Part shown: positions 1-17,465 of the stretch, piece by piece
How positions within the stretch are numbered: the stretch's first letter is position 1
How the letters are laid out: each line of letters opens with the position of its first letter
NCBI RefSeq assembly: GCF_028368995.1
Contig: NZ_JAQNDL010000001.1
Span: 3,328,001 to 3,392,000, forward strand
Source: Nannocystis bainbridge
Lineage (GTDB): Bacteria; Myxococcota_A; Polyangia; Nannocystales; Nannocystaceae
Direction: 5' to 3'
Length of the DNA stretch: 64,000 nt
The notes under the pieces: model-generated
Database searches by the model: none
Seen by the model: the letters and a program-made list of their open reading frames with translations, nothing else
Told to the model about the DNA's origin: nothing
Program-made: the position numbers and the translations under genes

Positions 1-2
1 AG

Positions 3-218
3 ACCGAGCGCATCGACGGCTCCTGGTACCGCACCTGGGGCACCCTGCTCGCCGGCGGCAGCGACGACCGCGTCGCTTTCAATCAATGGACCATGCGCAA
101 GGGCGAGCAGGACGAGGGCGAGCTCCCGCCCGACGGCCGCGCCACCCTGTTTTATGTCCTGAGGGACAGCCGACTCGGCGTCGACTGGTGGTGGCTCGAG
201 GTCGAGGTCGAGCCCTGA
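3..218 (+). CDS. 3' end of hypothetical protein (partial, runs off the window)
   Basis: Open frame from base 3 with GC-rich third positions, TERIDGSWYRTWG...LFYVLRDSRLGVDWWWLEVEVEP*; TGA at 216-218. Confidence 0.6.
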   Translation, partial: TERIDGSWYRTWGTLLAGGSDDRVAFNQWTMRKGEQDEGELPPDGRATLFYVLRDSRLGVDWWWLEVEVEP

Positions 219-429
219 GCCGCGACCCCGCGAAAGGCGCCGACCGGGTCCGGGCCCGCGATCGACGGCCACGCGGCCTGGACCTGGCTCACGCGCTCGC
301 GGCGACCCCCTGTCGCGCCCGATAGTTTCAGCCCGCCGTCCCGCCTGCGGCCCGGCTCCGCAGGAGCCTCCTGGCCAGGCCCTGCGCCGACGGCTGCGCG
401 GGGCTCCAGCCCGGCCACCGACCCGGGAG

Positions 430-2394
430 GTGCCGCTTGACCCCGCCGGCCCCGGGCGTTACTTCCCCTCTGGATCCGTGCTGGGCCTCACCGTAACCGT
501 GCTCGCCGCCCTGCTCGACGCCCCCGCGCCGGGCACCCTCGACCCGAACACCGGCATGCCCGTGGATGTTCAGCAGCGGGCCAACCCGCCGCCGGTCGAG
601 GCCCGTCCGGCGCCCGGCGTCAACTTCGGCCAGTCGCCCACCAGCGTCACGCCGCCGGCGACCCGGCCCCCGACCTCCTCCGATCCCAGCGCCCCGCGCA
701 CCCCGTTGATGCGGCCGCGGCCCGAGGCTGCCCCGACGAACATGCCCCCGGGGACAGGTCCTTCGGACCAGGCGACGCAGCCCAGCGCGCCTGCCCCCGA
801 CCCGGCCAGCCTCTACCCGCTGTCGTTCGCGGCCGAGTCGCTGTCGCTCAGCGACGTGCTGAAGAGCGCCCTCGACGGCAACATCGACCTGCGCAACAGC
901 GCGATCGACATCGCCATCACCGAGAAGCAGATCACCGCCGCGCTCGGCGCCTACGACGTGTTCTTCCTCGCCGGCGCGACCGCCAGCAAGGCCGTCACGC
1001 CTCAGCGTGGTTCGCAGCTGACCTTCAACGTCGGCCAGCAGCAGCTGTCCGGCAACTTCGGCTTCGAGCGCAAGCTCGAGTCGGGCGGCACGGTCAACTT
1101 CACCGTCACGACCACCCGCAGCTCGACCCTGCAGCCGCTCAACATCCAGAACGCGGCCGCCGGCGTCCGCTCGCTCAACGCGTACTTCGTCTCGCCGAGC
1201 CTGACGCTGACCCATCCGCTGCTGCGCAACGCCGGCGTGCGGGTCAACCGGGCCGACATCGACCGGGCCCGGATCGCGCGCACGCAGATGGAGGCCAACC
1301 AGCTGCAGATGGCGCAGACGGCCATCCACGACATCATCCTCGCCTACTGGGATGTCCTGTTCGCCTCGCGCGACCTCGAGAACAAGCGCCGCAGCGCCTC
1401 CACCACCTCCGAGCAGCACCGCCGCGTCAAGGCCGAGGTCGCGGCCGGTCGCAAGTCGCAGCTCGACCTCGACACCATCTATCAGTCTCTCGTCGCGCGC
1501 GAGAACGAGGTCGTGCTGGCCGAGAACACCCTGCTCGACCGCAGCCTGACCCTGCGGCAGTTCATGGGCCAGGACTTCTCGGGCCGCAAGGTCCTCGGCG
1601 TGCTGCCGCAGACCGACCCGCAGGCCCTCGCGCCGCGGGAGATCGACCTCGAGGGCGAGATCAAGAAGGCGTTCCAGGCCAACCCGCAGCTGCGCTCGCT
1701 CGAGATCGGCATCGCCAGCCGCCGCGTCGACGAGCTCGTGGCCGCCAACGCTCGCCTGCCGATCCTCGACTTCCGGTTCCAGTTCGCCCCCCAGGGCCGC
1801 AGCATCGACCAGATCGCCAACGTCGACACCGGCATCTCCGCCAAGCGGGCCTCGTGGCCCGAGGCGTTCCAGAACTTCTTCACCGCCACCGACGTCGCCA
1901 AGGTCAACTTCAACACCGGCCCGTTCGCCGACTTCAACATCAGCGGCTCGCTCAACTTCAACTTCGACATCCAGGGCCGCACCCCGAAGGCCAACCACGA
2001 GCGCGTGGTCCTCGAGATCCGCAAGGCCGAGTACAACCTGCAAAAGTCGCAGCAGCAGATCTCGATGTCGGTCATCCGCTCGGTCAACGCCATGCGGACC
2101 GCCAGCGCGCGCCTCACGATCACGAGCGAGGCCGTGCGCCTGGCCGAGTCGAACCTGCGCGCCGAGGAGGCCCGCTTCCGCGTCGGCCGCTCGACCAGCT
2201 ACGACGTGCTGTTCCGCCAGGACGAGCTCGCCCTGGCCCAGTTCAACGCCCTCTCGGCCCAGATCGACTACCTGCGCGCGACCGTCGAGCTGCAGACCCT
2301 CACCGGCCAGCTGCTCCCGTCCTACGGCCTCGAGCTGTCCGGCGCCGCCGCCCCGCGCCAGAGCTCCAGCCCCACCGGCGGCCGCTACCGCTGA
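430..2394 (+). CDS. TolC family outer membrane efflux protein
   Basis: Pro-rich N-terminus, then LSLSDVLKSALDGNIDL, AYWDVLFA, AFQANPQLR and EEARFRVGRSTSYDVL OEP-type motifs; exact start uncertain. Confidence 0.85.
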   Translation: MPLDPAGPGRYFPSGSVLGLTVTVLAALLDAPAPGTLDPNTGMPVDVQQRANPPPVEARPAPGVNFGQSPTSVTPPATRPPTSSDPSAPRTPLMRPRPEAAPTNMPPGTGPSDQATQPSAPAPDPASLYPLSFAAESLSLSDVLKSALDGNIDLRNSAIDIAITEKQITAALGAYDVFFLAGATASKAVTPQRGSQLTFNVGQQQLSGNFGFERKLESGGTVNFTVTTTRSSTLQPLNIQNAAAGVRSLNAYFVSPSLTLTHPLLRNAGVRVNRADIDRARIARTQMEANQLQMAQTAIHDIILAYWDVLFASRDLENKRRSASTTSEQHRRVKAEVAAGRKSQLDLDTIYQSLVARENEVVLAENTLLDRSLTLRQFMGQDFSGRKVLGVLPQTDPQALAPREIDLEGEIKKAFQANPQLRSLEIGIASRRVDELVAANARLPILDFRFQFAPQGRSIDQIANVDTGISAKRASWPEAFQNFFTATDVAKVNFNTGPFADFNISGSLNFNFDIQGRTPKANHERVVLEIRKAEYNLQKSQQQISMSVIRSVNAMRTASARLTITSEAVRLAESNLRAEEARFRVGRSTSYDVLFRQDELALAQFNALSAQIDYLRATVELQTLTGQLLPSYGLELSGAAAPRQSSSPTGGRYR

Positions 2395-2400
2395 GTCTCC

Positions 2401-2690
2401 GCCTGTCCCTTCGAACAGGCGCACTGGCCGCAGAAAAACCTGTCTCTTCGGACAGACCGGAGAACCATCTCCGCCTCGCGCGACCGTCCCTTCGGACAGA
2501 CCGCGCGAGCCGCCACCGCCTCGCGCGGTCGTCCACTCTGTCCCTTCCGACAGGCCCGGCGAGCCGCGACCGCTGGCGGTCATCCCCCTCGACGAGGATG
2601 GCTGCGGCCGCGTCTTTCGAACAGGCGAAGCGAATCGCCCCGCCTCCTCGCACACGGTCGCTACAGTCACATGTCTCTTCGGACAGACGA
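2401..2690. repeat. Intergenic cluster of TGTC-N6-GACA hairpin repeats
   Basis: Exact motif at 2441, 2539 and 2672, plus variants, embedded in partly repeated cgcctcgcgcg...gcgagccgc units. Confidence 0.65.
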
Positions 2691-3008
2691 CACTGCGACC
2701 TCTCTCCCGCGGGTGACGGTCGCCCCGAACCGTCCCGGAGCAGCGACCGCGGGCCTGGGCTCCAGAGCCCTCCCCGGGCGGCTGGCCGGCTGGCGAAGAC
2801 GCGCAGCGCCGGCCCCGCGCTCGCCGCTGTCCGATCTCCCGCGGCCTGGCCTCTCGCTGGACCTGGGCCTGCGAGATCTCCGGCTCGCCGCGCCCGGGCC
2901 GCCCAGGCGCGGCGTCCGCCGGCTCTGGGGCGTGCGCTCGGCTTGTTTCGTCGGCGCCGCTCGTGCTAGGTTGCTGCGTGCTCGCCCACGGGCGCCTGGA
3001 GAGCAGCC

Positions 3009-3260
3009 ATGTCCGCTACTGAAATCGCCGACAACAAGTGGGAGCTCGAAGCTTCCAAGCCCCCGGTCTCCGACGTCGGAGGCATCCTCCAAATCGTCGT
3101 CGTCGGGGCTTTCACCCTGATGTTCGCCTGGATGATGTTGTTCACCTTCCAGGGCATCTTCGGCAGCAAGCGCGAGAGCCTCGCCGATCAGTACGGAAAC
3201 CTGACCGTCGACGGCAAGAAGAAGGAGCCGGCGCCCGCACCGGCGCCCGCCGCCGAGTAG
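3009..3260 (+). CDS. Small single-TM hypothetical protein
   Basis: ggag RBS upstream; hydrophobic segment ILQIVVVGAFTLMFAWMMLF; typical codon usage. Confidence 0.75.
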   Translation: MSATEIADNKWELEASKPPVSDVGGILQIVVVGAFTLMFAWMMLFTFQGIFGSKRESLADQYGNLTVDGKKKEPAPAPAPAAE

Positions 3261-3281
3261 CTTCCGGGCGCCGACCGGCGC

Positions 3282-4016
3282 CTAGCGAATGCCGATGAAC
3301 GCGAGCATCTGCCCGATGCCCGCGCCGTCGCGGCGATAGCTGAAGTACTGCTCCGGGTGCTGGCAGGTGCACCCGCCGACGCGTTCGATGCTGTCCTTCG
3401 GGACACCTGCCGCCACCAGCTGAGCCCGGACTGCCGCCACCAGATCGACGTGTGGCCGCGCTCCGGGCTCTCGGCGTACGTGCTCCGCTGCGAATTGGTC
3501 CGCGACCTCCTCGCCGACCTCGAACGCCTCGACCTCGATGCACGGACCGATCGCCGCGATCAGCTGTGACGGCTCGACCCCATCGTCTTTCAGCGCCGCC
3601 ACCGTCGCCCCGACCACGTTCGCCACCGTCCCGCGCCAGCCGCTGTGGATCGCTGCCACTGCCGTCGCCGCGCGATCGGCCAGCAGCACCGGCACGCAGT
3701 CGGCCGTCATCACCCCGACCACGAGCGGCCCGTCGCCCGCGCGGGCCCACAGCGCGTCGCCCTCCGCGCCGGTCGTCAACGCCGACGCGCGCCACGCCGT
3801 CGCCCCGTGGACCTGCCGCACCAGCCGCAGCTGCTCCGGCGCGAAGTCACCGGCCGCCGCCACCCGGCGCAGGTTCTCGTCGACGTTGCCCGGCTCGTCG
3901 CCCCAGCGACGACCGAGGTTGAGGCTCTCGAAGCGCCCGCGACTGACGCCGCCGTTGCGATCGGTGAAGCCGTGGACGAGGCGTGGGGAGGCGAACAGCG
4001 CGGCGCGGGCGAGCAC
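3282..4016 (-). CDS. pgeF: Peptidoglycan editing factor PgeF (YfiH/laccase-like)
   Basis: HGFTDRNGGVS, SLNLG, QVHG, TADCVPVLL, HSGWRG, AIGPCI and YFSYRR motifs; adjacent to an RluA/RluD synthase. Confidence 0.92.
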   Translation of the reverse strand: MLARAALFASPRLVHGFTDRNGGVSRGRFESLNLGRRWGDEPGNVDENLRRVAAAGDFAPEQLRLVRQVHGATAWRASALTTGAEGDALWARAGDGPLVVGVMTADCVPVLLADRAATAVAAIHSGWRGTVANVVGATVAALKDDGVEPSQLIAAIGPCIEVEAFEVGEEVADQFAAEHVRREPGARPHVDLVAAVRAQLVAAGVPKDSIERVGGCTCQHPEQYFSYRRDGAGIGQMLAFIGIR

Positions 4017-4229
4017 CCAGACCTCTTAGGGTCCCCCGCCGTCGAGCGCAACAATCCGGGCGGTCGCGCGGCTCGATGCATGTGCCTCGCCACTTCGAGC
4101 CCGTTGATTCTCCCTGCTCCCGCCCCGGCGAGCGCGACGCTCGGCGTGGGCTCGGCCCTCGAGCGCTCCTCGAGGTCGCGTCCTGCGAGCCTCACCCTGC
4201 CGCCGACCGGCACCTCTGGCGAACGAGCC

Positions 4230-5069
4230 TCACGGCTCTGCGCCGCCGAGCGCCACGATCAGCGCGCGCAGTTCGGGCGGCAGCCGGCTCTCGAAGTCGA
4301 GCTCATCCCCTGACATCGGGTGCTGGAACCCGAGCACCGCCGCGTGCAGCGCGTGGCGTCCGAGCCCCTCCGCCAGCCCACGGATCGCAGCAGGCCCGCC
4401 GAGCCCGCCGTACAGCACGTCGCCGACGATCGGATGACCGAGCATGCGGCAGTGCATCCGGATCTGGTGCGTCCGTCCCGTCTCGAGCCGGAACTCGAGC
4501 ACCGCCGCGCCGGTCAATCGCTGCAGCGTGCGCACGTGCGTCACGGCGCGTCGGCCGTCGCGCGCCTCCCACGTGAAGCGGCGGCGATCGATCGGATCGC
4601 GCGCGTGGCCCGTGCGCAGCGTCTTCTCGGCGAACGTCGGCGCATCGCGGACCACCCCGAGATAGCGGCGGCGCAGCGAATGCCGGCGGAACTGCGCCGC
4701 CAGCCCCTCTTGCGCCCGCATGTGCTTCGCCACCACCAGCAGCCCGCTCGTATCGCGGTCCAGGCGGTGCACGATCCCCGGCCGGGTCGCGTCGTTGCCG
4801 GGCAGCACCGGCAGCGACTCGGCCCCGATCCCCAGGTGGTGCAGCACCGCGTTGACCAGCGTCCCGTGCGAGTGCCCGGGACCCGCGTGGACCACCATCC
4901 CGGCCGGCTTGTCGATCACCAGCAGGTGTTCGTCCTCGAACACCACCGTGAGCGGCAGCGCCTCGGGCGTCGCGTGCAGCGGCTCGGGCGCTTGCAGCTC
5001 GAGCTCCACCTCGACCTCGGCATCGACCACGCGGGACGCCTTCAGCGCCGCCCCATCGGCCGCGCACAC
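4230..5069 (-). CDS. rluD: RluA/RluD family pseudouridine synthase
   Basis: IDKPAGMVVH, GIVHRLDRDTSG, LETGRTHQIR, GHPIVGD and LHA motifs; the frame extends to about 5195 with S4-like GRRLDQAL...RSQLAR, so the true start is probably upstream and non-ATG. Confidence 0.9.
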   Translation of the reverse strand: MCAADGAALKASRVVDAEVEVELELQAPEPLHATPEALPLTVVFEDEHLLVIDKPAGMVVHAGPGHSHGTLVNAVLHHLGIGAESLPVLPGNDATRPGIVHRLDRDTSGLLVVAKHMRAQEGLAAQFRRHSLRRRYLGVVRDAPTFAEKTLRTGHARDPIDRRRFTWEARDGRRAVTHVRTLQRLTGAAVLEFRLETGRTHQIRMHCRMLGHPIVGDVLYGGLGGPAAIRGLAEGLGRHALHAAVLGFQHPMSGDELDFESRLPPELRALIVALGGAEP

Positions 5070-5204
5070 CTTCCCCGCCGCGAACGCGCGGGCCAGCTGG
5101 GAGCGCGTACAAGGGCTCCCTTGGCGGGCGAGTTCGGCGACGAGGGCCTGGTCGAGGCGACGCCCGATGGCGTCGTTTCCGAGGTGGAGTCGCAGGCCCG
5201 GAGC

Positions 5205-5474
5205 CTACCAGATGTGGGTCTTGAGGCTCGCCATCGGCTTGATCACGCGGTCGACGATGGCGCGGTCGTAGTAGTTCTTGCGGAACAGCTCGGGCGTCAC
5301 GCGGCCGCGGAACAGGTCACGACCTTCCATGATCTCCTCGCCGAGGGCATCGAAGAAGTTGTCGTTGATCAGCGCCTCCTCGATCTTCTGCTTGTTGTAG
5401 AGCTGGATGTCCGAGGCGATCGCGCGGGCGAGCTGTTGCGCGCGGGCGTCGTTGTCGATGGGCGTGGCTGCCAT
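5205..5474 (-). CDS. Small hypothetical protein (89 aa)
   Basis: MAATPIDNDARAQQLARAIASDIQLYN...KTHIW; strong codon bias; co-oriented with rluD. Confidence 0.8.
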   Translation of the reverse strand: MAATPIDNDARAQQLARAIASDIQLYNKQKIEEALINDNFFDALGEEIMEGRDLFRGRVTPELFRKNYYDRAIVDRVIKPMASLKTHIW

Positions 5475-5702
5475 CCCGCGAGGATGCCACAGCGCCGCGG
5501 CCCCCGCCAAGTCGCCGCAATTTCGCCGGACGGCCTCGTAAAAGCGCCCTTTGTCCGTGATACGCGGCGGATCTCCCCTGCGCGGGCCGGCCGCCCTGGC
5601 CAGCGCCGCGGGCGGACCGCCGTCATCGGCGGGCGACCCGACGCGCTCGCCCGCTCGGCCCGCCAGGGCCACCAAAATGCCACCAAGTTTGTGGCCCTGC
5701 CG

Positions 5703-5881
5703 CGGCGCATCCTCCGCTGGCGCAGGTGAGCCGTCAACTCATCGTGGACCTACCCGCGGTCACACACGGCGCATCTCCACTGGAGCGGGGAGCCGCGCAT
5801 GGACTCGCTGTCGGGTCGGGCTACATGGGCGCTTCCCGTCGGCAGGGGGAAACTTGCAGCGCCGGCGCATCCCTGCTGGCG
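5703..5881 (-). CRISPR. Degenerate type I-E-like CRISPR array, left segment (3 repeats plus 1 truncated)
   Basis: Repeats at 5703-5732, 5767-5794, 5827-5853 and 5863-5881 match the + strand consensus SGGCGCATCCCCGCTGGCGCGGGGGAGCC; unique spacers of 34 and 32 nt. Confidence 0.7.
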
Positions 5882-6018
5882 ACCTCCCGACGCTGACGGC
5901 TCGGGCGGCACTGTACACAGCGAGGGCTTACGATAGCCCTGCGCGGTGAAGCTCGCTACGGCTGCTCGTCGACGCCCGGGCCGGCGCGCGCGATCATCAT
6001 GGTACGTTCAGCGTTGGC

Positions 6019-7269
6019 ATGGCGCGGGTCCACCTTTGGCGCAGGATATCCCGGGCCGGCGTCGACTCCGGCTTGGACGAACATCTGCGGCGAAAGGTCG
6101 AGCTGACGAACAAGCTCGGCTTCACTGCGGGCGTCCTGGTGTTCACGGGAAATTCGCTGTTCTGGGGGGTCCTCGGCGCCGACGTTCGCATGGTCCTCGT
6201 CTTGTTCGCAGCGGCCCTCGCCTATGCCTCGATCCCCTTGATCAACCGCGCGCGTCGGTACGACCTCTCGCGCGGCGTGCTGACCGTTCTTCCGCCGATC
6301 TTCATCGTCGCGGCGGCTGGCATCATCAGCGACACTCCGCTCCTCAGCTTCAAGTTCGCGCTGCTGTCGGTTATCGCCGGGCCGCTCCTCGTGTTCGGCA
6401 TCGAAGAGCCGCGGAAAATGATCGCCGGCATCGTGTGGGTCGCCGTCTGTCTCGTCGGGATGGACACGATGATGCCGATCATCCCGAAGCTTTCGGGATT
6501 AGACGCAAACCCGCTCGAGGGCTCGCTCTCCGTCACGATCAACGCGGCGGTGAGTTGCCTGATTTTTGTCTCCTCGTTCGTCTATTTTCAGCGCCTCAAC
6601 CTCGCCGCAGAGAGGAAGCTGGAGGCCGAGAAGGTCAAGTCGGAGCGCTTGCTCCTCAACGTCTTGCCGCGAGAGATCGCCGATACGCTCAAAGAGTCCG
6701 AGCGAACCATCGCGGAACACCTCGAGAGCGCCAGCATTCTGTTCGCGGACCTCGTCGGGTTCACACCACTAGCGGCGAAGCTCTCGCCCGGCGCCGTCGT
6801 CGACCTCTTGAACGAGCTGTTCTCCGAGTTCGATCGGATGGCCGAGCGGCTCGGCGTGGAAAAGATCAAGACCATCGGCGACTGCTACATGGCGGCCGCC
6901 GGGGTCCCCAGGCCCACCGATGACCATGCCCACGCACTGACGCGGCTAGCGCTGGCTATGCAGGCGTTCATGACGGAGTACCGGTTCGAGGGACGGCGCC
7001 TGGCGCTGCGCATAGGGATCAACTCCGGGCCGGTGACTGCTGGCGTGATCGGCCGCAAGAAGTTCGTCTACGACCTGTGGGGCCACACGGTGAATGTCGC
7101 TAGCCGAATGGAATCGCAGGGGAGCGGCGGAGTCGTTCAGATCACCGACTCGACTCATGCGCTGATCGAGGACGATTTCGCGTGCGTGTCCGGCGGTGTC
7201 GTCAATGTCAAGGGCACTGGCGAAATGCACGTGTGGCACGTCCTCGGAGCCCGCGACGGCCGAGCTTGA
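6019..7269 (+). CDS. Membrane class III adenylate/guanylate cyclase (complete catalytic set)
   Basis: About 6 TM helices, then FADLVGFT, KIKTIGDCYM, RIGINSGPV, YDLWGHTVNVASRME and VKGTG. Confidence 0.93.
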   Translation: MARVHLWRRISRAGVDSGLDEHLRRKVELTNKLGFTAGVLVFTGNSLFWGVLGADVRMVLVLFAAALAYASIPLINRARRYDLSRGVLTVLPPIFIVAAAGIISDTPLLSFKFALLSVIAGPLLVFGIEEPRKMIAGIVWVAVCLVGMDTMMPIIPKLSGLDANPLEGSLSVTINAAVSCLIFVSSFVYFQRLNLAAERKLEAEKVKSERLLLNVLPREIADTLKESERTIAEHLESASILFADLVGFTPLAAKLSPGAVVDLLNELFSEFDRMAERLGVEKIKTIGDCYMAAAGVPRPTDDHAHALTRLALAMQAFMTEYRFEGRRLALRIGINSGPVTAGVIGRKKFVYDLWGHTVNVASRMESQGSGGVVQITDSTHALIEDDFACVSGGVVNVKGTGEMHVWHVLGARDGRA

Positions 7270-7279
7270 CGGGCTGCGG

Positions 7280-7766
7280 CGGCGCATCCCCGCTGGCACG
7301 GGGGAGCCATCGTCCAAGACCCCCTCATCTTCCAGGCCAAGGGCGCATCCCCGCTGGCGCGCGGGGCCGGCGGCAACCTCGTCGCGGCGAACCTCCGGGC
7401 GGGCGCATCCCCGCTGGCGCGGGAGAGCCCTGACTGCGCTGCCGTCCGGCGCGTGGCAGAGGGGCGCATCCCCGCTGGCGCGGCGGCGCATCCTCGCTGG
7501 CGCGGGGAAGCCCGCACCAACGGAGAGCTGGGAGAGGGTGCCCTTCTGGCGCGGGGGAGCTGGGATCTCCACCCCGCGGCTCTTGAGCTCGTACGGCGCA
7601 TCCCCGCTGGCCCGGGGGAGCCCGCTCGGGGTGCCTGCGGATGTCGTCGAAGGAGGGCGCATCCCCATTGGGTCGTCAAGGACCAGGAGGGCGCATCCCC
7701 ACTGGCCCGGGGGAGCCAAGGTCCCGATGGCCAGCCAGGGCCTCGTGCACGGCGCATCACCACGCC
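7280..7766 (-). CRISPR. Degenerate type I-E-like CRISPR array, right segment (about 10 full or partial repeats)
   Basis: Repeats at 7280, 7341, 7401, 7462 (partial), 7484, ~7543 (partial), 7594, 7655 (partial), 7689 and 7750 (partial); unique 32-nt spacers at 7309-7340, 7369-7400, 7430-7461, 7623-7654 and 7718-7749; minus-strand repeat GGCTCCCCCGCGCCAGCGGGGATGCGCCS resembles the E. coli I-E repeat. Confidence 0.88.
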
Positions 7767-8211
7767 TGCCGACGGCGCCGGCGAGGGCGACACGCCCAAG
7801 ACGGCAATGTTGCGCCGCATCGCCACGTGTACGCGTCTATCAGCGCGACGTGATCCGCGGCCGCCCGCGAGCGGCGATAACCGGGAAATACGAGCGGGAC
7901 GACGACTTGGTTCCCGAGCCGGCGGAAGTGATGGCGCTGTGTCTTGCTGGCGGGCTCGCCGGCAACGGGGTAGCGCTGCGCCACACCGGCGTGCGCAGGC
8001 CGTAAAGGATGATCTCTGGCGAGCTGTCTTTTGGGACACCAAGTACGCTTGGGGGGCGCCAAGCGTGTTTGGCGGTCAAAACACACGGTTTAAGGCGCTA
8101 CGGCTCATGATCCGCGAGGCATCGTCGCGTCACTCTCAGGACGAGCGCGTGTCGTGATGAACGACTCGCTCACTCTCACTCTCTGAGTCTTCACCCTGTA
8201 AGGAGGATACA

Positions 8212-8811
8212 ATGTCTCTCATCGCTACCATGTTCGCACTCGCCACGACGACCACCCCGACGACGCCCAGCGCGTACGATCTTCTCGCCCGTCTGGAGGC
8301 GATGCCCGTGGTGCTCGAGGAAGTCGCGGCCGTCGTCGACCTGAACGACGGCGTGGACCTCGAGGTCAACTTCAATCTGAGCAGCGTCGGTGCGGTCACC
8401 ATCGCCGCGCATGAAGACGACGATGGCTCCGGTCACGGGCTCGTGCTCGTAGGCGCCGCCGTCGTCGCGGAGTTCGAGCTCGCAGGCGACACGGTCGTCT
8501 GGGAGACAGTCGACCTCGCTGGCTTCCGCCCGGAGCAGGTGGAAGCGGTCGCGGCGAGCATCCTGCAGGTCTGGCGCGAGGATGAGGTCGCGGAAGCGCT
8601 CGCCGCCGCGCCCACCGAGCCGACCGAAGACCGGAGCCTCAAGTGCACGGCTGCCGCCGGGATCGCCGGCGCCACGGCAGGCATCTTGATCGGCGCGACC
8701 TGCGGCATCTTCATCAAGAATCCGGTGACGTGCGGCAAGGCCGGGGGGAGCGCCTACGGGGCCGTTTCGCACTATATTTCGAACAAGTGCAACGGCGCGC
8801 AGAACGGGTGA
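8212..8811 (+). CDS. Secreted hypothetical protein with C-terminal Gly/Ala/Cys bacteriocin-like domain
   Basis: aaggagg RBS; signal-like N-terminus; acidic middle; C-terminal C-x18-C-x9-C-x18-C with GxxxG motifs. Confidence 0.75.
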   Translation: MSLIATMFALATTTTPTTPSAYDLLARLEAMPVVLEEVAAVVDLNDGVDLEVNFNLSSVGAVTIAAHEDDDGSGHGLVLVGAAVVAEFELAGDTVVWETVDLAGFRPEQVEAVAASILQVWREDEVAEALAAAPTEPTEDRSLKCTAAAGIAGATAGILIGATCGIFIKNPVTCGKAGGSAYGAVSHYISNKCNGAQNG

Positions 8812-8828
8812 GCAAGGAGGAGGGGGCT

Positions 8829-9554
8829 TTGGACTCGCAGCGAATTACGCCGTACAGACCCCTGCCGCCGCAGCGGTGGGGTTTCCTGGCGACGAACCAG
8901 TTCTGGTCTCGCGCGTGGCTGACGCCCATCTCCATCGTCTTCTGGGCCGGCGCCGCGGTCTTCTTCAGCCTCTTCGACCTCTTCGCCCTCGTGTGGTGGC
9001 AGCAGGCGCTGGGATTCCTGGCGTTCTACGGGGTCTGGGGCGGGCTGGTGGAGCGGTACTCCAGGAAATACCTGGCTCGCCAGCGGGTGCGGGCGCTCGC
9101 CGGCCCCCGAACCGATCCACCAGAAGGTCCCGCGGATGCAGCCGCCGAGACTACATCGAGGGCCCTCCCGGAGCCTCCTGACGCGTCGTCACGCGCCCTC
9201 GTGCCATCACGCGAGCCACGGCCAGAGCCGTCGCTCGTGGCGACGGCCGAAACCTGGGACGACGGGTACGAGAGGCTGTTCGGGCGCGGCGCAGCCGTCG
9301 CCCAGCTCGTGTCCAATGTCGCTTTCGGGCTGGCGATCTTCTACCCGAGCTGGCCGGTCAAGCTCCTGGCATTCCTGGCTCTGCTCGTTACTTCGCTTGG
9401 CCTCGGGTTGTGGCAACGCCGGAGGGCGATGCCGGCCGGTGGGGAAGTACCCCCCGAGGCACTGGAAACCGGCGCGGGGGCGCCGAACGCAGAGTTGGGC
9501 GGCGCCGGTTCCAACACGGCAGGGCGCTCGCCCGGGGCGCTGCCGCATGAGTGA
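8829..9554 (+). CDS. Multi-TM hypothetical membrane protein (candidate immunity protein)
   Basis: AAGGAGG at 8814-8820 before TTG 8829 (alternative GTG at 8808 overlaps the upstream stop); about 4 hydrophobic segments. Confidence 0.65.
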   Translation: MDSQRITPYRPLPPQRWGFLATNQFWSRAWLTPISIVFWAGAAVFFSLFDLFALVWWQQALGFLAFYGVWGGLVERYSRKYLARQRVRALAGPRTDPPEGPADAAAETTSRALPEPPDASSRALVPSREPRPEPSLVATAETWDDGYERLFGRGAAVAQLVSNVAFGLAIFYPSWPVKLLAFLALLVTSLGLGLWQRRRAMPAGGEVPPEALETGAGAPNAELGGAGSNTAGRSPGALPHE

Positions 9555-9730
9555 GCTCGGCCTGTCGGAACCGATCTAACTCGACCTTGCGCATAGCGGC
9601 GTCGCCGCCGTGGGTCTTGGCGACGGTCTCGCCCCCCGGCTGTCGATCACCACAAATTCGTCAGTCCTTAGGCCGTCCCGCCGCAACCGCGCTGGTCGCT
9701 CGTGAGCGCTCAATTCCCCAGATGCAACCC

Positions 9731-10600
9731 TCAGCCGAGCGGCTCGAAGAGCTCGGCCACGGGCGAGTCGTTCGGGGCGGGGTCGTAGTCGCCGATGCCG
9801 TCGAAGCAAGCGTGAACTTCGGGAGATGAGCCACCACGCGCGCGGGCCATCCGGGCACACCCGGCGAGCAGCGCCAGCACCTCTTCGACCCATGGATCCG
9901 CGAGGTCTTCTATGCACGCCGGAAAAGCTGCGAACCCGGCGGGCACATCGACCTCGGACCTGCGATCGTCCTGCAGCTTCGCCAGCGCGACCGCGAAGTG
10001 TAGCGACACCGCGACGATCGCCGGCGCGCTGCCGTGTCTGGCGACCGCGAGCGTGCGCTCGTGGGCCCGCTCGAGACGGCTCGCAGATGCCCGCCAGTAA
10101 CGGCGGAGCAACCGCTCCGACCGCGAGCGCCGGCGGACCTGCTCGCGGTACTCCGCCTTCCAGCGCGCAACACCGGAGCTGCGCTTCCACGCCTCGACGA
10201 AGAAATCGAGGTCGGCCGGGAACTCGAGCGCGATGAGCCGCTCGATGGCCTCGTCCGCGGCGATCATCGCCGCCTGCCCGAGCGCCGAGCGCAGCGCACC
10301 CCGGCGCTTCGGAGCGACCTGGGCCACCCGGCCTCCGGCGCGCCCGGTTCGGCCGCAGCGAACGCGGCGAACATCCCTGCAGCGTCGGCGAAGCGAGCGC
10401 TCGCGACCGCGGCGAGAGCGTCACGCAGCGCGGCAACCTGGTGCGCCGTCGGCGGGACGTCGTCATCCTCGACCGCCTCGTCTGCATCGGCCGCCTCGAA
10501 GCCCGCCGCGAGCTCGCGCGAAGCGCTCGGATACGGCGTCGCTAAAAATTGCCCGCGCTCGAACAGGAGCGCCGTCATCACCACCAGGAGCACGTACACG
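9731..10600 (-). pseudogene. Helical hypothetical protein, possibly frameshifted (ORFs 10264-10683 and 9731-10327)
   Basis: Two overlapping ORFs in different frames whose protein-like parts meet near 10300-10330. Confidence 0.35.
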
Positions 10601-10757
10601 CGGCCGATGAACGAGCGATGAACGCTGCGGATCTCAGCATTCGCGCATGGACTCGACGACCACGAGACCCGTCGAAATAACATGTCCCTTGGGACACGTT
10701 ATGATCCTTCTCGAGGACTCCCGACCTTCGCGGCCTTTCGATTGTCCAGCAGACCTC

Positions 10758-11954
10758 TCAGCCCACCGTCGCCGGGCTGCGGTACCCCTCCGGCTCCCCG
10801 CGCACCACCGCAGCTCGCTCCTCCGCCGTCAGCTCCGCCCACGTCGCCGCGTCCACCACGACTTGCTCCGGCGTCGCTCGCTCTTCCATTGCGAACGCCG
10901 CCTCGATCGCCGCCCCCCACATGTCGTAGGCCAGCTTGTTCGTCCCCACCACCCCAGCGATCACCTCGCCGGTCCCGACCCCGATGCGCACCCGGATTGC
11001 GCGCGCCTGGCAGGCCTCTGCGCGCTCGACTGCCGCGCGCATGCGCAGCGCCAGGTCGACCGCCGCGCGGGCTGACGGCTCGCGGCCTGACAGCCCGACC
11101 GCCGCCACATACGCATCGCCGACCGTCTTCACCTTGTCCGCGCCACGCTCCTTGCAGACCGCATCGAACGCGCTGAACGTCGCGTTGAGCACACGGACGA
11201 TGTCCTCCGCGGCTGCCTCTTCGGCCAGGCGCGTGAACCCGGCGATGTCGCACACCACGATGCTCACCTGCGGGTGACGTCGCCCCACCCCTTCGCCGCC
11301 CTCGCGCAGCGTCGCCACGAACTCGGCCGGCAGCACCGTCCCCAGCAGCGCGTCCGTGCGGCCGCGCAGCGCTCGCAGCTCGTCGCGCGTCCGCGCCGTC
11401 ACCCGCTGCGCGTAGTACGTCGCCACCGCCATCGCCGCCGCCACCAGCGACATGTTGATCTGGAAGTTGCTGCGCACGTCCTCGGGCGCCGCCCCCATCG
11501 CCGGCACCACCGCGAACGCGAAGCAGAAGCCGAGGAACGCCGCCGCGTTGAGACCTGCCACTGCCAGCGCCGTCCGCCGCCGCTCGCTCGGGAACAGCAT
11601 GAACGTCAGCACGATCACCGGCATGTACCAGTACTGCAGCCCGTAGATCGGCCCGAACAGCGACACCGCGCCGGCCGTCGAGAGCAGCGTGTACAGCGCG
11701 AAGATCACCGCCGCTGCTGCGTGACGGCCCTTCGTCGACAGCCACAGCGAGAACATCGGCGGCCCGATCCCCGCCGACAGCCCGTACACCACTCCTGTCA
11801 GCGAGCCCGCCGCGTAGATCGAGCTCAGCAGCACCGTGATCGCCGTGAAGCCGATCGCCAGCAGGCACAGCCCGTGGAGGAACACCACGTGCTGGCGCTC
11901 GAGCGGCGCCGCGTGCGGGGCCAGGCCCTGGCGCAGCAGTCGCCGGAGGCTCAC
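10758..11954 (-). CDS. Membrane class III cyclase, C1-like subunit
   Basis: GTG at 11954 overlaps the upstream stop; TM region; CDIAGFT and VKTVGDAY present; YDMWGAAIEAAFAME lacks the N/R pair; no KGKG. Confidence 0.88.
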   Translation of the reverse strand: MSLRRLLRQGLAPHAAPLERQHVVFLHGLCLLAIGFTAITVLLSSIYAAGSLTGVVYGLSAGIGPPMFSLWLSTKGRHAAAAVIFALYTLLSTAGAVSLFGPIYGLQYWYMPVIVLTFMLFPSERRRTALAVAGLNAAAFLGFCFAFAVVPAMGAAPEDVRSNFQINMSLVAAAMAVATYYAQRVTARTRDELRALRGRTDALLGTVLPAEFVATLREGGEGVGRRHPQVSIVVCDIAGFTRLAEEAAAEDIVRVLNATFSAFDAVCKERGADKVKTVGDAYVAAVGLSGREPSARAAVDLALRMRAAVERAEACQARAIRVRIGVGTGEVIAGVVGTNKLAYDMWGAAIEAAFAMEERATPEQVVVDAATWAELTAEERAAVVRGEPEGYRSPATVG

Positions 11955-13189
11955 GGCGCGCGCCCTGCCTTGCGTGCTCCGCGGACGAAGTACGTCTTCA
12001 TCGCCCCCTTGCCCTTGATCTCCACCCCTTCGCGCCCGCTGCACTCGAAGCGATGGTTGATCTTCGCGAACGTCAGCGGCGACACGTGGACCTCGCCTGC
12101 CAGCCCGTGCATCTCCATCCGCTGGGCCGTGTTGACCGTATCGCCCCACAGGTCGTACGTCGGTCGCACCTGCCCGATCACCCCTGCGACCACCGGCCCC
12201 GAGTTGACCCCGATGCGCACCGCGATCCCCGGCGTCGCCGCGAACTCGTCGCGCAGCGCCAGCCCCAGCGCCACCAGCACCTCCGCGTGGTCCGGGCGGT
12301 ACACCGGCAGCCCGGCCGCCGCGACGAAGCTGGTCCCCGTCGTCTTGATCTTCTCCGCCCCGAACTCGGCGCAGCGGCGGTCGATCGCGGCGAACACCGC
12401 GTGGAGCCGGGCCAGGTACGCCTCTGGCGTCTGGCCCTCGGCCGGGCGGTCGAGCCCGATCACCCGGCAGAACAGCACCGACGCGTCGCCCTGGCGCTCC
12501 GCGATCTCCTGCTCGCCCGCTTGCAGGCGCAGCCCGATCTCCTCCGGGAACACGCTGCGGAGCAGCCGCTCCGACTTCGCCCGCTCGTGCTCGAGGTCTG
12601 CCGCGGCCATCGCGTTGAACGAGCGCGAGCCGTAGCCGACCAGCAGCGTGATCGCCACCAGCAGCCCCTGATGCAGGTACTGGTTGGGCCCGTACTGGGC
12701 CACGCGCCGGGCCAGGTCGCCGTCGAGGTCCCAACCGTAGACCAGCACTGCCAGGCACGTCGAAGCTGCCAGCGCCGTGGCCAGCGCCGCTGTCGGCTCG
12801 CGGCTGGGGAACAGCAGGAACGGCAGCGCCGCCACCAGGATCAGCATGAAGAAGTTGCCGTAGTCGAGCCCGAGGGTCCACGAGCCGACCACGATCGAAG
12901 TCATCACCGCGACGTGGAACACCAGCGCCGCGTCGCGCGGGCGGCCGCGGGCGTGCAGCGCGAACACGGCTCCCAGGCCGCCGACCGTGAGCCCGAGGTG
13001 GGCCAGGAGCGCCGGGTCGAGCGGCCGGCCGGTGCCCATGTGACCCGCGCAGGCCATCACGATCCCGAGCAGCGCCAGCCCGTTGAGCAGGCGGATCCGC
13101 TGACCATCCTCTCGGGACATGTCCTCGCGGACACCCGCCGCGACGGCCCGCGACAGCGCCGCTCGCACCCGCAGGCCCGCGTTCGTCAC
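11951..13189 (-). CDS. Membrane class III cyclase, C2-like subunit
   Basis: TM region; FCRVIGL and IKTTGTSF lack both metal Asp; YDLWGDTVNTAQRME and IKGKG intact. Confidence 0.9.
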   Translation of the reverse strand: MTNAGLRVRAALSRAVAAGVREDMSREDGQRIRLLNGLALLGIVMACAGHMGTGRPLDPALLAHLGLTVGGLGAVFALHARGRPRDAALVFHVAVMTSIVVGSWTLGLDYGNFFMLILVAALPFLLFPSREPTAALATALAASTCLAVLVYGWDLDGDLARRVAQYGPNQYLHQGLLVAITLLVGYGSRSFNAMAAADLEHERAKSERLLRSVFPEEIGLRLQAGEQEIAERQGDASVLFCRVIGLDRPAEGQTPEAYLARLHAVFAAIDRRCAEFGAEKIKTTGTSFVAAAGLPVYRPDHAEVLVALGLALRDEFAATPGIAVRIGVNSGPVVAGVIGQVRPTYDLWGDTVNTAQRMEMHGLAGEVHVSPLTFAKINHRFECSGREGVEIKGKGAMKTYFVRGARKAGRAP

Positions 13190-13343
13190 TTCCCCGGCAC
13201 CTTACCGGAAACCCCCGCCAGCGTCCCGCCGGGCCCGACCGGCGGCTGGCGCGGAAACGAGCCGCCCGCAGCCGTCACATGCCCGAAAGGACATGTCGCA
13301 AAAGCCATACGGACACGCGTTCGCCGACGCGCGTCGTCACGGC

Positions 13344-14939: not shown

Positions 14940-15010
14940 GCCGCATCGTAGGCGGTCCCGGCGGTCCTCGCTCGCCCGCCCGCGGGCGATCTCGAAGTCT
15001 CTGCGAGTGA

Positions 15011-16432
<1,422 letters not shown>

Positions 16433-16436
16433 GCCG

Positions 16437-16541
16437 CCTGTCCGATCGGGCCTGCCCGATCGCGCATGTTCTGAGGGGCATGTCCGCGAGGACATGCCCC
16501 TTCGCGCACGCCCGCGAGGCCATGTCTATTAAATCATGTCC
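16437..16541. repeat. 14-bp-period CATGYY array between convergent genes
   Basis: gcatgttctgaggg/gcatgtccgcgagg/acatgccccttcgc/gcacgcccgcgagg/ccatgtctattaaa/tcatgtcc. Confidence 0.75.
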
Positions 16542-17465
16542 TCACCCGCGCGGCCGGTTGGCCGCGCGGAAGAAGTCGAGGAAGCAGCGCAGCTTGACCG
16601 GCATGTGCGCGCGGTTCGGGTAATAGAACGAGAACCCCGGGAACTCGGCGCAGTGCCGCTGCAGCACGTGGACCAGCCGCTTCTCGGCCAGCGGCGCGCG
16701 CACCAGCCCGGCGAACACCTGCGCCAGCCCGAGCCCGGCGGTCGCCGCCTCGGCGATCGCCACCATGTCGTTGAGGATGATGCGGCCGTCGACGTCGAGC
16801 TCGACCTCGTCCTCGCCGGTACCGAGCCACCAGCGCAGCAGCCGGCCGCTGGTGACGAAGCGCAGGCGGATGCAGTCGTGGTCGAGCAGGTCGCGCGGCG
16901 CGGTCGGCCGCGGCCGGCTGGCGAAATACTCCGGCGCGCCGACGACCACCAGCCGCTGCGGCCCGCCGAGCGGCGCCGTGATCATGTCGCGCGGGATGGC
17001 CTCGCCGAGGCGGATGCCGACGTCGAAGCCCTCGCCGACGACCTCGCTGAGCCCGTCGCTGAGCCCGAACTCGAGCCGGACGTGCGGGTGTTCGCGGCCG
17101 AAGCGGGCCAGGTGCGGGGCGATGAACAGCGTGTACGTGACCCGCGACAGCGCCACCCGGACCAGCCCGCGCGGCGCCTCGCCCTCGCCCTCGAGCGCCT
17201 CGCAGGCCTCGTGAAGCTGCGCCAGCCCGGGCGCGATCCCGGCGAGGAAGCGCGCCCCCGCATCGGTCGGGCTCACGCTGCGGGTCGTGCGGCGCAGCAG
17301 GAGCACCCCGAGGTGGCGCTCGAGCTTGCGCACCGTCTGCGACAGCGCCGACGTCGACACCCCCAGCTCGTCGGCCGCGCGGGTGAAGCTGCAGTGCCGC
17401 GCGACGCACTCGAAGGCCGCGATCGCCGGCAGGTCGGTCGGCTTGATCGTGAAGCGCCGGTTCAT
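16542..17465 (-). CDS. LysR family transcriptional regulator (CrgA-like)
   Basis: SFTRAADELGVSTSALSQTVRKLE, LLRRTTRSVSPTDAG and EGFDVGIRLG. Confidence 0.93.
   Translation of the reverse strand: MNRRFTIKPTDLPAIAAFECVARHCSFTRAADELGVSTSALSQTVRKLERHLGVLLLRRTTRSVSPTDAGARFLAGIAPGLAQLHEACEALEGEGEAPRGLVRVALSRVTYTLFIAPHLARFGREHPHVRLEFGLSDGLSEVVGEGFDVGIRLGEAIPRDMITAPLGGPQRLVVVGAPEYFASRPRPTAPRDLLDHDCIRLRFVTSGRLLRWWLGTGEDEVELDVDGRIILNDMVAIAEAATAGLGLAQVFAGLVRAPLAEKRLVHVLQRHCAEFPGFSFYYPNRAHMPVKLRCFLDFFRAANRPRG

What the first reader, a model, noticed from the sequence alone, without database searches (positions are those of the whole stretch)
5703..7766. Intact adenylate cyclase gene sitting inside a CRISPR array
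Seen: the same 28-29-nt repeat with 32-34-nt unique spacers occurs in the same orientation on both sides of the cyclase gene. The left segment ends in a truncated repeat at 5881, and the right segment starts 10 bp after the stop codon. The cyclase has visibly more A/T-ending codons than flanking genes. Inference: a ~1.4-kb cassette entered the array by repeat-targeted insertion or recombination, or less likely as an oversized acquisition. The predicted array transcript (minus strand) would run antisense through the gene, so Cas6 processing or regulation in trans is possible.
Basis: partly seen in the sequence, partly recalled or inferred. Interest (0 to 1): 0.8.

Follow-up and report, generated by a model that had tools for sequence, protein, structure and literature searches.

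The report
Cyclase gene lodged in dead CRISPR array
An intact adenylate cyclase gene does sit between two stretches of the same CRISPR repeat, but the array is a decayed leftover in a genome with no detectable cas genes, so this looks like a stray gene fragment captured in junk DNA, not a new CRISPR function.

Summary
A type I-E-like CRISPR repeat (28-nt consensus, 60-61-nt period) occurs as ten units at 7280-7777 and as three or four eroded units at 5703-5881. Both sets share one orientation, and the repeat occurs nowhere else in the 11-Mb genome. Between them lies an intact 416-aa membrane class III adenylate cyclase (6019-7269).

The array is a dead orphan. None of the 14 units equals the consensus, and several are truncated. 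Searches for six cas families and for nine proteins of a related I-E operon found nothing in the genome.

The 5.2 kb from 5577 to 10766 are species-specific. They join two blocks that lie far apart in sister genomes.

The cyclase's only orthologues sit at other, repeat-free loci in two sister species. Homology runs from 78 nt before the start codon to 5 nt after the stop. The junctions cut one repeat at nt 19 and one spacer 5 nt before the next repeat. There are no terminal repeats or mobility genes.

Best reading: a chromosomal fragment was captured by illegitimate recombination in decaying CRISPR DNA, possibly replacing a cas operon between two arrays. No CRISPR-cyclase function is supported. 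Interest is low.

The parts
5577..10766 (.). Species-specific 5.2-kb stretch between two conserved blocks that are not neighbours in sister genomes
   Evidence: Five sister genomes match the window up to 5529-5576. They match again from about 10766, at a different chromosomal place. Nothing in between is syntenic.
5703..5731 (-). Left segment, repeat unit 1 (29 nt; 3 mismatches and a 1-nt insertion)
   Evidence: Alignment score 44. Background never reached 32 in 300 kb. Genome-wide profile rank 9. Strand is by analogy with G061.
5767..5793 (-). Left segment, repeat unit 2 (27 nt, eroded)
   Evidence: Score 38. Genome-wide profile rank 8.
5828..5850 (-). Left segment, possible unit 3, heavily eroded
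   Evidence: Score 22, which is background level. Accepted only because it lies 60 nt after unit 2.
5863..5881 (-). Left segment, truncated unit (first 19 of 28 nt on the + strand); left junction of the insert
   Evidence: Score 34. Profile rank 11. A contig of run X3 spans 5854-6004 with no differences.
5882..5940 (.). 59 nt of unknown origin between the truncated repeat and the part shared with G007
   Evidence: No match in sister loci, in the genome itself or to G061 leader or inter-array DNA.
5941..6018 (+). 78-nt upstream region of the cyclase, conserved with G007; presumed own promoter and 5' UTR (inferred)
   Evidence: blastn and MAFFT alignment to G007. No sigma-70-like site was found.
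6019..7269 (+). Intact class III adenylate cyclase, 416 aa: hydrophobic N-terminal half, then a catalytic domain
   Evidence: PF00211, E 5.8e-57. PDB chain 7yzi_A matches residues 42-412, E 3.8e-63. Five to six hydrophobic segments in residues 30-190. dN/dS is 0.18 against G001 and 0.16 against G007.
7270..7279 (.). Right junction: 5 nt still shared with G007 (7270-7274), then 5 nt that look like the end of a spacer (7275-7279)
   Evidence: Three-way alignment. A contig of run X1 spans 7133-7384.
7280..7777 (-). Right segment: ten repeat units, two of them truncated by internal deletions and two eroded, with unique 32-34-nt spacers
   Evidence: The 22-nt tandem at 7463-7505 is a truncated unit followed by a full unit. 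Spacers match only themselves in the genome.
7778..8211 (-). Presumed leader remnant of the right segment (inferred only)
   Evidence: G+C falls to 0.60-0.65 at 7800-8400. Its position is upstream of the array in the transcribed orientation. No similarity to G061 leaders and no promoter-like site.

Best explanation
WHAT IT IS. This is the eroded remnant of a type I-E-like CRISPR locus in a genome that no longer has (or never had) the matching cas genes. It lies in a 5.2-kb species-specific stretch at a variable, rearranged position downstream of the rluD block.

WHAT HAPPENED. A 1.33-1.39-kb piece of the lineage's own chromosomal DNA became joined into this remnant by non-homologous, end-joining-type recombination. 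The piece carries one complete gene: a membrane class III (Cya/Rv1625c-like) adenylate cyclase with 78 nt of its own upstream region. One junction cuts a repeat after nt 19. The other lies in a spacer 5 nt before the next repeat.

HOW IT WORKS NOW. The CRISPR DNA has no immune function, so nothing selected against the event. The cyclase presumably works as an ordinary cAMP-forming signalling enzyme expressed from its own upstream region. The repeats are passengers.

TWO HISTORIES I CANNOT TELL APART.
(a) One array was split by the insertion, with about 36 nt lost. I rate this about 0.45.
(b) Two arrays flanked a cas operon, which was deleted and replaced by the fragment. I rate this about 0.35.

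SHOWN: repeats on both sides; the repeat unique to this locus; erosion of the units; no cas genes found; broken synteny; orthologues at other loci; junction positions; gene intact and under purifying selection.
INFERRED: the joining mechanism, the order of events, the gene's own promoter, its enzymatic activity, and the absence of any coupling to the repeats.
For: REPEATS.
- Real on both sides and found only here.
- 0 of 14 units equal the consensus. Four are truncated or badly eroded in the right segment, and all left units are eroded. The consensus folds into the 6-bp stem plus tetraloop (-17.2 kcal/mol), while the units give -2.8 to -14.9.

REPEAT TYPE. A related repeat in G061 (2 mismatches) flanks an operon with Cas3-HD, Cas7e (E 3e-96), Cas5, Cas6e and Cas1.

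NO CAS GENES IN THE OWN GENOME.
- 0 matches for PF01867, PF08798, PF09344, PF18019, PF09827 and PF01881.
- tblastn with 9 G061 operon proteins gave none at E<=0.1 genome-wide, while the cyclase control was found. The best hit within window 1-20000 had E 0.21.

RARITY OF THE REPEAT. Absent from 10 of 10 same-genus genomes. Present in 1 of 72 other family genomes at up to 3 mismatches. Present in 1 of 400 other sampled class genomes at up to 2 mismatches.

SYNTENY. It breaks at 5576 and resumes at about 10766 with a block from elsewhere.

ORTHOLOGUES OF THE CYCLASE.
- Found only in G007 (89% nt and aa) and G001 (77% nt, 76% aa) among 72 other family genomes. All other hits are at or below 55%.
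- Both loci lack the repeat.
- The own genome lacks the gene at the G001-syntenic site.
- The 89% identity to G007 matches the 87-91% of the flanking conserved blocks, so the gene is native to the genus while the array is not.

JUNCTIONS. Mapped. No terminal inverted repeats.

LOCAL ASSEMBLY. Short-read contigs of three soil runs cover both junctions.

GENE STATE. Intact, with dN/dS 0.16-0.18.
Against: - The genome is 90.5% complete and looks like a metagenome-derived assembly, so a cas operon on a missing or unbinned piece is not excluded.
- PF08798 and PF09344 rang in only 1 of 14 control genomes. PF01867 scores the G061 I-E Cas1 at only 22.5 bits. The Pfam negatives alone are therefore weak, and the tblastn negatives carry more weight.
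- About half of the right-hand units can still form a 5-6-bp hairpin, so erosion is partial.
- The 3' junction lies only 5 nt after the stop codon and the 5' junction keeps 78 nt. This is a strikingly tight fit around one gene for a random capture. It could reflect selection for an intact gene, or a mechanism I did not recognise.
- No sister strain with an uninterrupted array or a cas-bearing version was found, so the order of events is not observed.
- I have no expression data. The single RNA-library contig at 6315-6536 does not show transcription.
Confidence: 0.78

Rival explanations
1. Variant history (compatible with the best explanation). The two repeat segments are the remains of two arrays that flanked a cas operon. 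That operon, its leader and parts of both arrays were deleted and replaced by the cyclase fragment, perhaps in one deletion-and-capture event. That single event would explain both the loss of cas genes and the position of the gene.
For: G061 is the only other genome found with this repeat family. It has exactly this layout: an array of at least 28 units, then cas3 to cas1 plus an exonuclease gene (9.3 kb), then an array of about 33 units. All are in one orientation. In the window both segments share one orientation, and the gap between them sits where the operon would be. One event is more economical than a separate cas loss plus an insertion.
Against: No cas remnant is present between or beside the segments. 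The 59 nt at 5882-5940 show no likeness to the G061 leader or to its array-to-cas3 DNA (275 and 186 of 300 shuffles scored as high or higher). No left/right repeat variant separates the two segments, as the loop variants do in G061. One example of the layout is a thin prior.
Confidence: 0.35
2. Functional coupling. The array remnant is still transcribed from its leader on the minus strand. The transcript either regulates the cyclase by antisense RNA, or is processed by a Cas6-type enzyme acting in trans, so the arrangement is selected.
For: The geometry is right: the array orientation inferred from G061 runs antisense through the gene. The gene is kept intact very close to the repeats. Some units can still fold.
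Against: No Cas6e, Cas6 or any other cas gene was found. No promoter-like site lies in the presumed leader. The units are eroded and internally deleted. The arrangement occurs in 1 of 3 genomes that carry the orthologue, so it is not conserved. No stranded RNA data exist for it.
Confidence: 0.05
3. Directed insertion. The cassette entered through a mechanism that recognises CRISPR DNA. Candidates are a repeat-targeting transposon (as described for Tn7-like elements of cyanobacteria) or Cas1-Cas2 integrating an oversized 'spacer'.
For: Array-targeting Tn7-like elements exist and insert at a fixed position in spacers (PMC11837452, abstract read). The right junction here is in a spacer, 5 nt from a repeat.
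Against: The insert holds one ORF, the cyclase, and no transposase. There are no terminal inverted repeats at its ends, and I saw no target duplication in the sequence. The left repeat is cut at nt 19, not intact or duplicated, which Cas1-Cas2 integration would require. The site is at least nine units from the leader end. No Cas1 was found.
Confidence: 0.03
4. Assembly artefact. The contig is chimeric at this point, so the neighbourhood (rluD block, array, cyclase, far block) does not exist in one cell.
For: The genome appears metagenome-derived. The stretch joins two blocks that are apart in 5 of 5 sister genomes. The block that follows rluD in G010 and G001 lies on another contig here.
Against: Short-read contigs of runs X1-X3 cover the local junctions with 0-1 differences: 5622-5939, 5741-5933, 5854-6004 and 5908-6636. 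One contig, 7133-7384, bridges the right junction with 7 differences and looks like a second strain. X1 has depth in 30 of 30 bins over 4800-8800. These runs may be the source of the assembly, so they are not independent. They do not test the outer joins at 5577 and 10766.
Confidence: 0.05
5. Joint import. The array and the cyclase arrived together by horizontal transfer from a donor in which the gene already sat between repeats.
For: The whole 5.2 kb is species-specific and has lower G+C than the flanks. The repeat is foreign to the genus (0 of 10).
Against: The cyclase is 89% identical to the G007 copy, like the conserved backbone at 87-91%, so it is native to the genus. No donor was found. 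A 21-nt core of the repeat occurs only as single hits in 8 loci of the species-representative genome collection. None of 71 metagenome loci encoding cyclase relatives carries the repeat, and none is a close orthologue: the best full-length match is 35%, and the best segment is 63% over 111 residues.
Confidence: 0.07

Closest known systems
Orphan (cas-less) and degenerate CRISPR arrays, e.g. the orphan CRISPR2 locus of Enterococcus faecalis (PMC4580645; seen only as a search listing and the start of the abstract)
   Same: Regularly spaced repeats with unique spacers and no cas genes beside them or, here, anywhere in the genome searched.
   Different: This one is much more eroded (0 of 14 units equal the consensus, with internal deletions). 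It is unique to one species of its genus, and a cellular gene lies between two of its parts.
Type I-E CRISPR-Cas loci, as in genome G061 of the same family. From recall, not tested here: the E. coli K-12 repeat shares the CCCCGC-GCCA-GCGGGG hairpin core
   Same: A 28-nt repeat with a 6-bp G+C stem and tetraloop, a 60-61-nt period and 32-34-nt spacers. It differs from the G061 repeat by 2 of 27 positions.
   Different: No Cas3, Cse1, Cas7e, Cas5e, Cas6e, Cas1 or Cas2 here, no recognisable leader, and mutated units.
CRISPR arrays interrupted by mobile elements: IS elements (recalled) and array-targeting Tn7-like transposons of cyanobacteria (PMC11837452; outline and abstract read)
   Same: Foreign DNA sits inside an array, with one junction in a spacer close to a repeat.
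   Different: No transposase, no element ends and no fixed, clean insertion site. The insert is a single housekeeping-type signalling gene of the host lineage.
Membrane class III adenylate cyclases of the Cya/Rv1625c type (PDB 7yzi, 4p2f; that these entries are the mycobacterial Cya is recalled, as the table says only 'Adenylate cyclase')
   Same: A hydrophobic N-terminal half followed by a helical linker and one catalytic domain. The match to 7yzi_A covers residues 42-412, E 3.8e-63. The stretches FADLVGFT, KTIGDCYMA and YDLWGHTVNVASRME are present. Their roles as metal-binding, substrate-specifying and transition-state residues are recalled.
   Different: Nothing unusual in the protein itself. 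Only its genomic position is odd.

Membership tests
CRISPR array | Three or more direct repeats of 23-50 nt at regular spacing, separated by unique spacers of similar length | tested here: met
   Ten units at 7280-7777 with a 60-61-nt period, and three or four at 5703-5881. Spacers match only themselves in the genome.
CRISPR array | Repeat units (nearly) identical to each other | tested here: not met
   0 of 14 units equal the consensus. Units at 5863, 7462 and 7655 are truncated. Units at 5828, 7533 and 7750 are eroded.
CRISPR array | Not a dispersed repeat: the copies are confined to arrays | tested here: met
   All hits at up to 4 substitutions, and 10 of the 11 best profile hits in 11.05 Mb, lie at this locus.
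Functional type I-E CRISPR-Cas system | cas3, Cascade genes (cse1, cse2, cas7e, cas5e, cas6e), cas1 and cas2 in the genome | tested here: not met
   0 matches for six Pfam families. No tblastn hit for nine G061 operon proteins. Caveats: the genome is 90.5% complete, and two of the Pfam searches rang in few control genomes.
Functional type I-E CRISPR-Cas system | Repeat RNA folds into the Cas6e hairpin (6-bp G+C stem, tetraloop, 8-nt 3' handle) | tested here: inconclusive
   The consensus folds so at -17.2 kcal/mol. About half of the right-hand units keep a 5-6-bp stem and the left units do not. No Rfam family matched.
Functional type I-E CRISPR-Cas system | A+T-richer leader with a promoter next to the newest repeat | tested here: inconclusive
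   G+C is 0.60-0.65 at 7800-8400. No promoter-like site was found and there is no likeness to G061 leaders.
Functional type I-E CRISPR-Cas system | Spacers match phages or plasmids | tested here: not met
   No phage hit better than E 0.08. Plasmid hits fall only in the cyclase domain. 0 exact matches for three spacer cores in viral contigs. Phages of this lineage are poorly sampled.
Class III adenylate/guanylate cyclase (Cya/Rv1625c-like membrane form) | Catalytic domain PF00211 over the curated cut-off | tested here: met
   192.7 bits against a cut-off of 21.9, E 5.8e-57, residues 233-408.
Class III adenylate/guanylate cyclase (Cya/Rv1625c-like membrane form) | N-terminal multi-pass membrane domain joined to one catalytic domain | tested here: met
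   Five segments above the hydropathy threshold, plus one probable segment, in residues 30-190. The alignment to 7yzi_A covers residues 42-412. MASE7 scores only 17.8 bits, below its cut-off.
Class III adenylate/guanylate cyclase (Cya/Rv1625c-like membrane form) | cAMP-forming activity; Lys/Asp substrate-specifying pair | not testable with these tools
   The K of KTIGD and the D of YDLWG are present in the sequence. Their assignment is recalled. Activity needs an assay.
Transposon or IS insertion in an array | Transposase gene, terminal inverted repeats and a target-site duplication | tested here: not met
   The cyclase is the only ORF with a family in 5882-7279. No inverted repeat pairs the two ends. 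No duplication is seen at the junctions.
Cas1-Cas2 integration product (spacer-like) | Insert bounded by two intact repeats, at the leader end | tested here: not met
   The left repeat is cut at nt 19. Five nt of spacer remain on the right. The site is at least nine units from the leader end.

The most novel reading that the evidence does not exclude
The remnant is not inert. Its old leader still drives a minus-strand transcript through the degenerate repeats and antisense across the cyclase gene. Leftover CRISPR DNA would then have been co-opted, without Cas proteins, as a regulator of a cAMP signalling gene. A milder novel reading is that one deletion-and-capture event replaced the cas operon with the cyclase fragment, giving a snapshot of how a CRISPR-Cas locus dies; I rate that at about 0.35, with lower interest.
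Probability: 0.05. Interest if true: 0.55.

Novelty: new member of a known kind. Interest (0 to 1): 0.22.

Why it matters
If the best reading is right, this is a small, clean example of what happens to CRISPR DNA after the system dies. The repeats mutate, spacers and repeat parts are deleted, and the locus becomes a tolerant landing place for other DNA at a rearrangement-prone position.

It is also a warning for annotation pipelines. Such a locus may be called as two small arrays, or as a 'gene within a CRISPR array', and then over-interpreted.

It bears on no open question about CRISPR mechanism or cAMP signalling unless the antisense-regulation reading holds. That reading has no support at present.

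Tried and rejected
- RFAM. A search of 5400-8300 at E<=1 gave 0 matches.
- TANDEM REPEATS FINDER. It saw only the 22-nt doublet at 7463-7505, not the array.
- MY CRUDE GENOME-WIDE CRISPR FINDER. It used exact 20-mers at 40-99-nt offsets. It returned 106 clusters, mostly coding or short-unit tandem repeats, and did not even recover this array. I draw nothing from it about other arrays.
- FIRST TBLASTN OF G061 CAS PROTEINS. It timed out with no output. I repeated it on the window and on the genome with default settings and a positive control.
- LEADER AND JUNCTION LIKENESS TO G061. None above shuffles.
- PROTOSPACER SEARCHES. Phage records, plasmids, three spacer cores in viral contigs and the genome itself gave nothing beyond chance.
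- SISTER-STRAIN SEARCH. One spacer core in metagenome contigs gave 0 hits. A cyclase-based locus search in metagenome contigs gave 71 loci, none orthologous and none with the repeat. The 21-nt repeat core in species-representative genomes gave 8 loci; the exact core occurs once in each, though the repeat profile hits L037 four times, so L037 may hold an array of its own.
- RUNS AND READS.
  - Two joints (6764 to 6862, and 7492 to 7852) rest on one contig each, with sides of 25 and 20 letters. I treat them as unreliable.
  - Bins without cover in X2, X3 and X9 say nothing.
  - The single 222-nt contig of the RNA library X9 (6315-6536) does not show transcription.
- PROMOTER/TERMINATOR SCAN. 0 promoter-like sites. 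3 terminator-like sites, against 1.7 expected.
- NCBIFAM. Nothing above cut-off for the cyclase or the island ORFs.
- THE MATCH AT 5565-5586 (score 28). I reject it as a repeat unit. It sits at the end of DNA shared with sister genomes that lack the array, and 11 such scores occur in 300 kb of background.
- LITERATURE. Two searches, read as listings only apart from one abstract. They do not establish that a gene within an array remnant is unreported. Supplementary files were not opened.
- No structure prediction, complex prediction or large protein-database search was run. The family of the protein was clear without them.


Full report
WHAT IS THERE

The window is G000:C1:3328001-3392000 of an 11.05-Mb assembly in 5 contigs with 71-72% G+C. 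Around the finding, the + strand carries a 28-nt unit with the consensus CGGCGCATCCCCGCTGGCGCGGGGGAGC.

- Seven places match its 27-nt core at up to 3 mismatches, all at 7281-7716. The same search found 0 in 100 shuffles.
- A gapped scan resolves ten units between 7280 and 7777, mostly 60-61 nt apart. Two are cut short by internal deletions (7462-7483 and 7655-7671). Two are eroded (7533-7560 and 7750-7775).
- Tandem Repeats Finder sees only the 22-nt doublet that one of these deletions created.
- Left of the gene lie units at 5703-5731, 5767-5793 and 5863-5881. The last stops after nt 19. A weak in-phase candidate lies at 5828-5850.

ARE THE LEFT COPIES MORE THAN CHANCE?

Yes. With the same scoring on 300 kb of random genome sequence, nothing reached 32, while the three left units score 44, 38 and 34. 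Score 22, the level of the 5828 candidate, occurs about once per kb, so that unit rests on its phase alone.

A profile of six right-hand units was run over the whole genome. It ranks the seven right-hand hits first. The left units come 8th, 9th and 11th, with one unrelated hit between them.

The repeat is not dispersed: at up to 4 substitutions it occurs only here.

WHAT KIND OF REPEAT

- Among 72 other genomes of the same family, only G061 (another genus) has a related unit, differing at 2 of 27 positions. None of the 10 same-genus genomes has one.
- Among 400 other sampled genomes of the class, G061 is again the only one at up to 2 mismatches.
- In G061 the repeat forms two arrays, of at least 28 and about 33 units, in one orientation. 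They flank a 9.3-kb operon with Cas3-HD/helicase, Cas7e (PF09344, E 3e-96), Cas5, Cas6e (PF08798, E 1e-26), Cas1 and an RNase_T-type exonuclease.

This makes the repeat type I-E-like and fixes its transcribed strand. In the window that is the minus strand, so the leader would lie at about 7778-8211, where G+C falls to 0.60-0.65. The consensus RNA folds into a 6-bp G+C stem with a tetraloop. That this core equals the E. coli K-12 repeat core is my recollection and was not tested. Rfam gave no match.

THE ARRAY IS AN ERODED ORPHAN

- None of the 14 units equals the consensus. Fold energies of the units run from -2.8 to -14.9 kcal/mol, against -17.2 for the consensus.
- The genome gave 0 matches for Cas1, Cas6e, Cas7e, Cas3-HD, Cas2 and Cas6.
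- These Pfam searches are imperfect. PF08798 and PF09344 rang in only 1 of 14 control genomes, and PF01867 scores the G061 I-E Cas1 at only 22.5 bits.
- I therefore also ran tblastn with nine G061 operon proteins. There was no hit at E<=0.1 in the genome, while the cyclase control was recovered. The best hit within window 1-20000 had E 0.21.
- The genome is 90.5% complete, so a cas operon on a missing piece is not excluded.
- Cas1 is patchy in the group: 2 of 10 same-genus genomes and 33 of 72 other family genomes.
- Spacers are unique in the genome. They have no significant match in phage records, plasmids or viral contigs.

THE GENE

ORF 6019-7269 encodes 416 aa.

- It has a class III cyclase domain (PF00211, E 5.8e-57).
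- It has five to six hydrophobic segments in residues 30-190.
- It aligns over residues 42-412 with PDB chain 7yzi_A (E 3.8e-63), and with the catalytic halves of mammalian membrane adenylate cyclases.
- It is intact. dN/dS is 0.18 against the G001 orthologue and 0.16 against the G007 copy.
- Its GC3 (0.84) and G+C (0.635) are lower than those of the conserved neighbours (GC3 0.89-0.94). The G001 orthologue has GC3 0.885.

WHERE THE GENE COMES FROM

Among 72 other family genomes, only two hold an orthologue. All other hits are paralogues at or below 55% identity over the catalytic half.

- G001: 76% aa, intact.
- G007: 89% aa, read in two frames because of a 2-nt deletion opposite window 6614-6615.

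Both copies lie at loci unrelated to this one and carry no CRISPR repeat. At the site syntenic with the G001 copy, the own genome has 780 bp of non-coding DNA instead.

Identity to G007 (89% nt) equals that of the conserved backbone (87-91%). The gene is therefore native to the genus, whereas the array is not.

THE JUNCTIONS

Homology with G007 begins at 5941, 78 nt before the start codon. It ends at 7274, 5 nt after the stop.

- On the right, five more bases follow (7275-7279, presumably the end of a spacer), and then a nearly perfect repeat at 7280.
- On the left, 59 nt of unknown origin (5882-5940) separate the shared part from a repeat cut after nt 19.
- No inverted repeat pairs the two ends, no duplication is visible, and the insert holds no other gene.

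This does not fit a transposon. It does not fit the array-targeting Tn7-like elements described in PMC11837452 (abstract read). It does not fit Cas1-Cas2 integration, which would leave intact repeats on both sides. It does fit non-homologous joining.

THE WIDER SETTING

- Five sister genomes match the window up to 5529-5576, the end of a conserved block with a laccase-like gene, an RluD-type pseudouridine synthase and a small ORF. They then diverge.
- From about 10766 the window matches a block that lies megabases away from the rluD block in the same genomes.
- In G010 and G001 the block that follows rluD, after a few variable kb, maps to another contig of this genome.
- So 5577-10766 is species-specific DNA at a variable, rearranged position. 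Besides the array and the cyclase it holds three hypothetical ORFs without a family.

IS THE ASSEMBLY SOUND?

Contigs of three soil runs of one study cover 5622-5939, 5741-5933, 5854-6004 and 5908-6636 with 0-1 differences. One contig, 7133-7384, bridges the right junction with 7 differences, perhaps from a second strain. X1 has depth in 30 of 30 bins. These runs may be the source of the assembly, and they do not test the outer joins.

INTERPRETATION

The best-supported account is a decaying orphan I-E remnant into which a fragment of the lineage's own DNA, carrying one whole cyclase gene, was joined by illegitimate recombination. I cannot tell whether one array was split or whether the fragment replaced a cas operon between two arrays, as laid out in G061.

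No cas gene was found, the repeats are mutated, and the arrangement is present in only one of the three genomes that carry the gene.

Orphan and degenerate arrays are well known, and so are arrays interrupted by mobile DNA (listings, abstract). A non-mobile host gene in that position is an unusual instance, not a new kind of system.

Noticed in passing
window 10797-11651 and 11957-12850, minus strand: Two further class III cyclase paralogues lie in tandem (29-38% identical to the array cyclase). They sit exactly where synteny with sister genomes resumes at about 10766.
   Followed up: partly
window 8212-8811 (+) and 8829-9554 (+): A pair of island ORFs without any Pfam or NCBIfam family. The first ends in a Gly/Cys-rich hydrophobic tail, and the second is hydrophobic. 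They have distant paralogues in this genome, and 70-74% nt matches at several places in sister genomes.
   Followed up: partly
L013 (G007:C2:320000-338000), opposite window 6614-6615: The closest orthologue of the cyclase (89%) carries a 2-nt deletion that shifts the frame near residue 199. I could not tell whether this is a pseudogene or an assembly error.
   Followed up: partly
L026 (G061:C30:36000-54000): A type I-E operon flanked by two arrays whose repeats differ in the loop (CCAG against CTGG), with an RNase_T/DnaQ-like exonuclease ORF after cas1.
   Followed up: partly
window 5577 onward; L015-L019: The position just after the rluD block is variable in all five sister genomes examined. 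In G010 and G001 the next conserved block corresponds to G000 C2:2047573-2056442. This genome therefore carries a large rearrangement, or a mis-join, here.
   Followed up: partly
G000 C1:1912534-1913314: The 780-bp non-coding stretch at the site where G001 has its cyclase copy plus a second ORF contains an internal direct repeat of about 40 nt.
   Followed up: no
window 5205-5474, minus strand: A conserved 89-aa ORF next to rluD has no family in Pfam or NCBIfam. It is present in all five sister loci.
   Followed up: no
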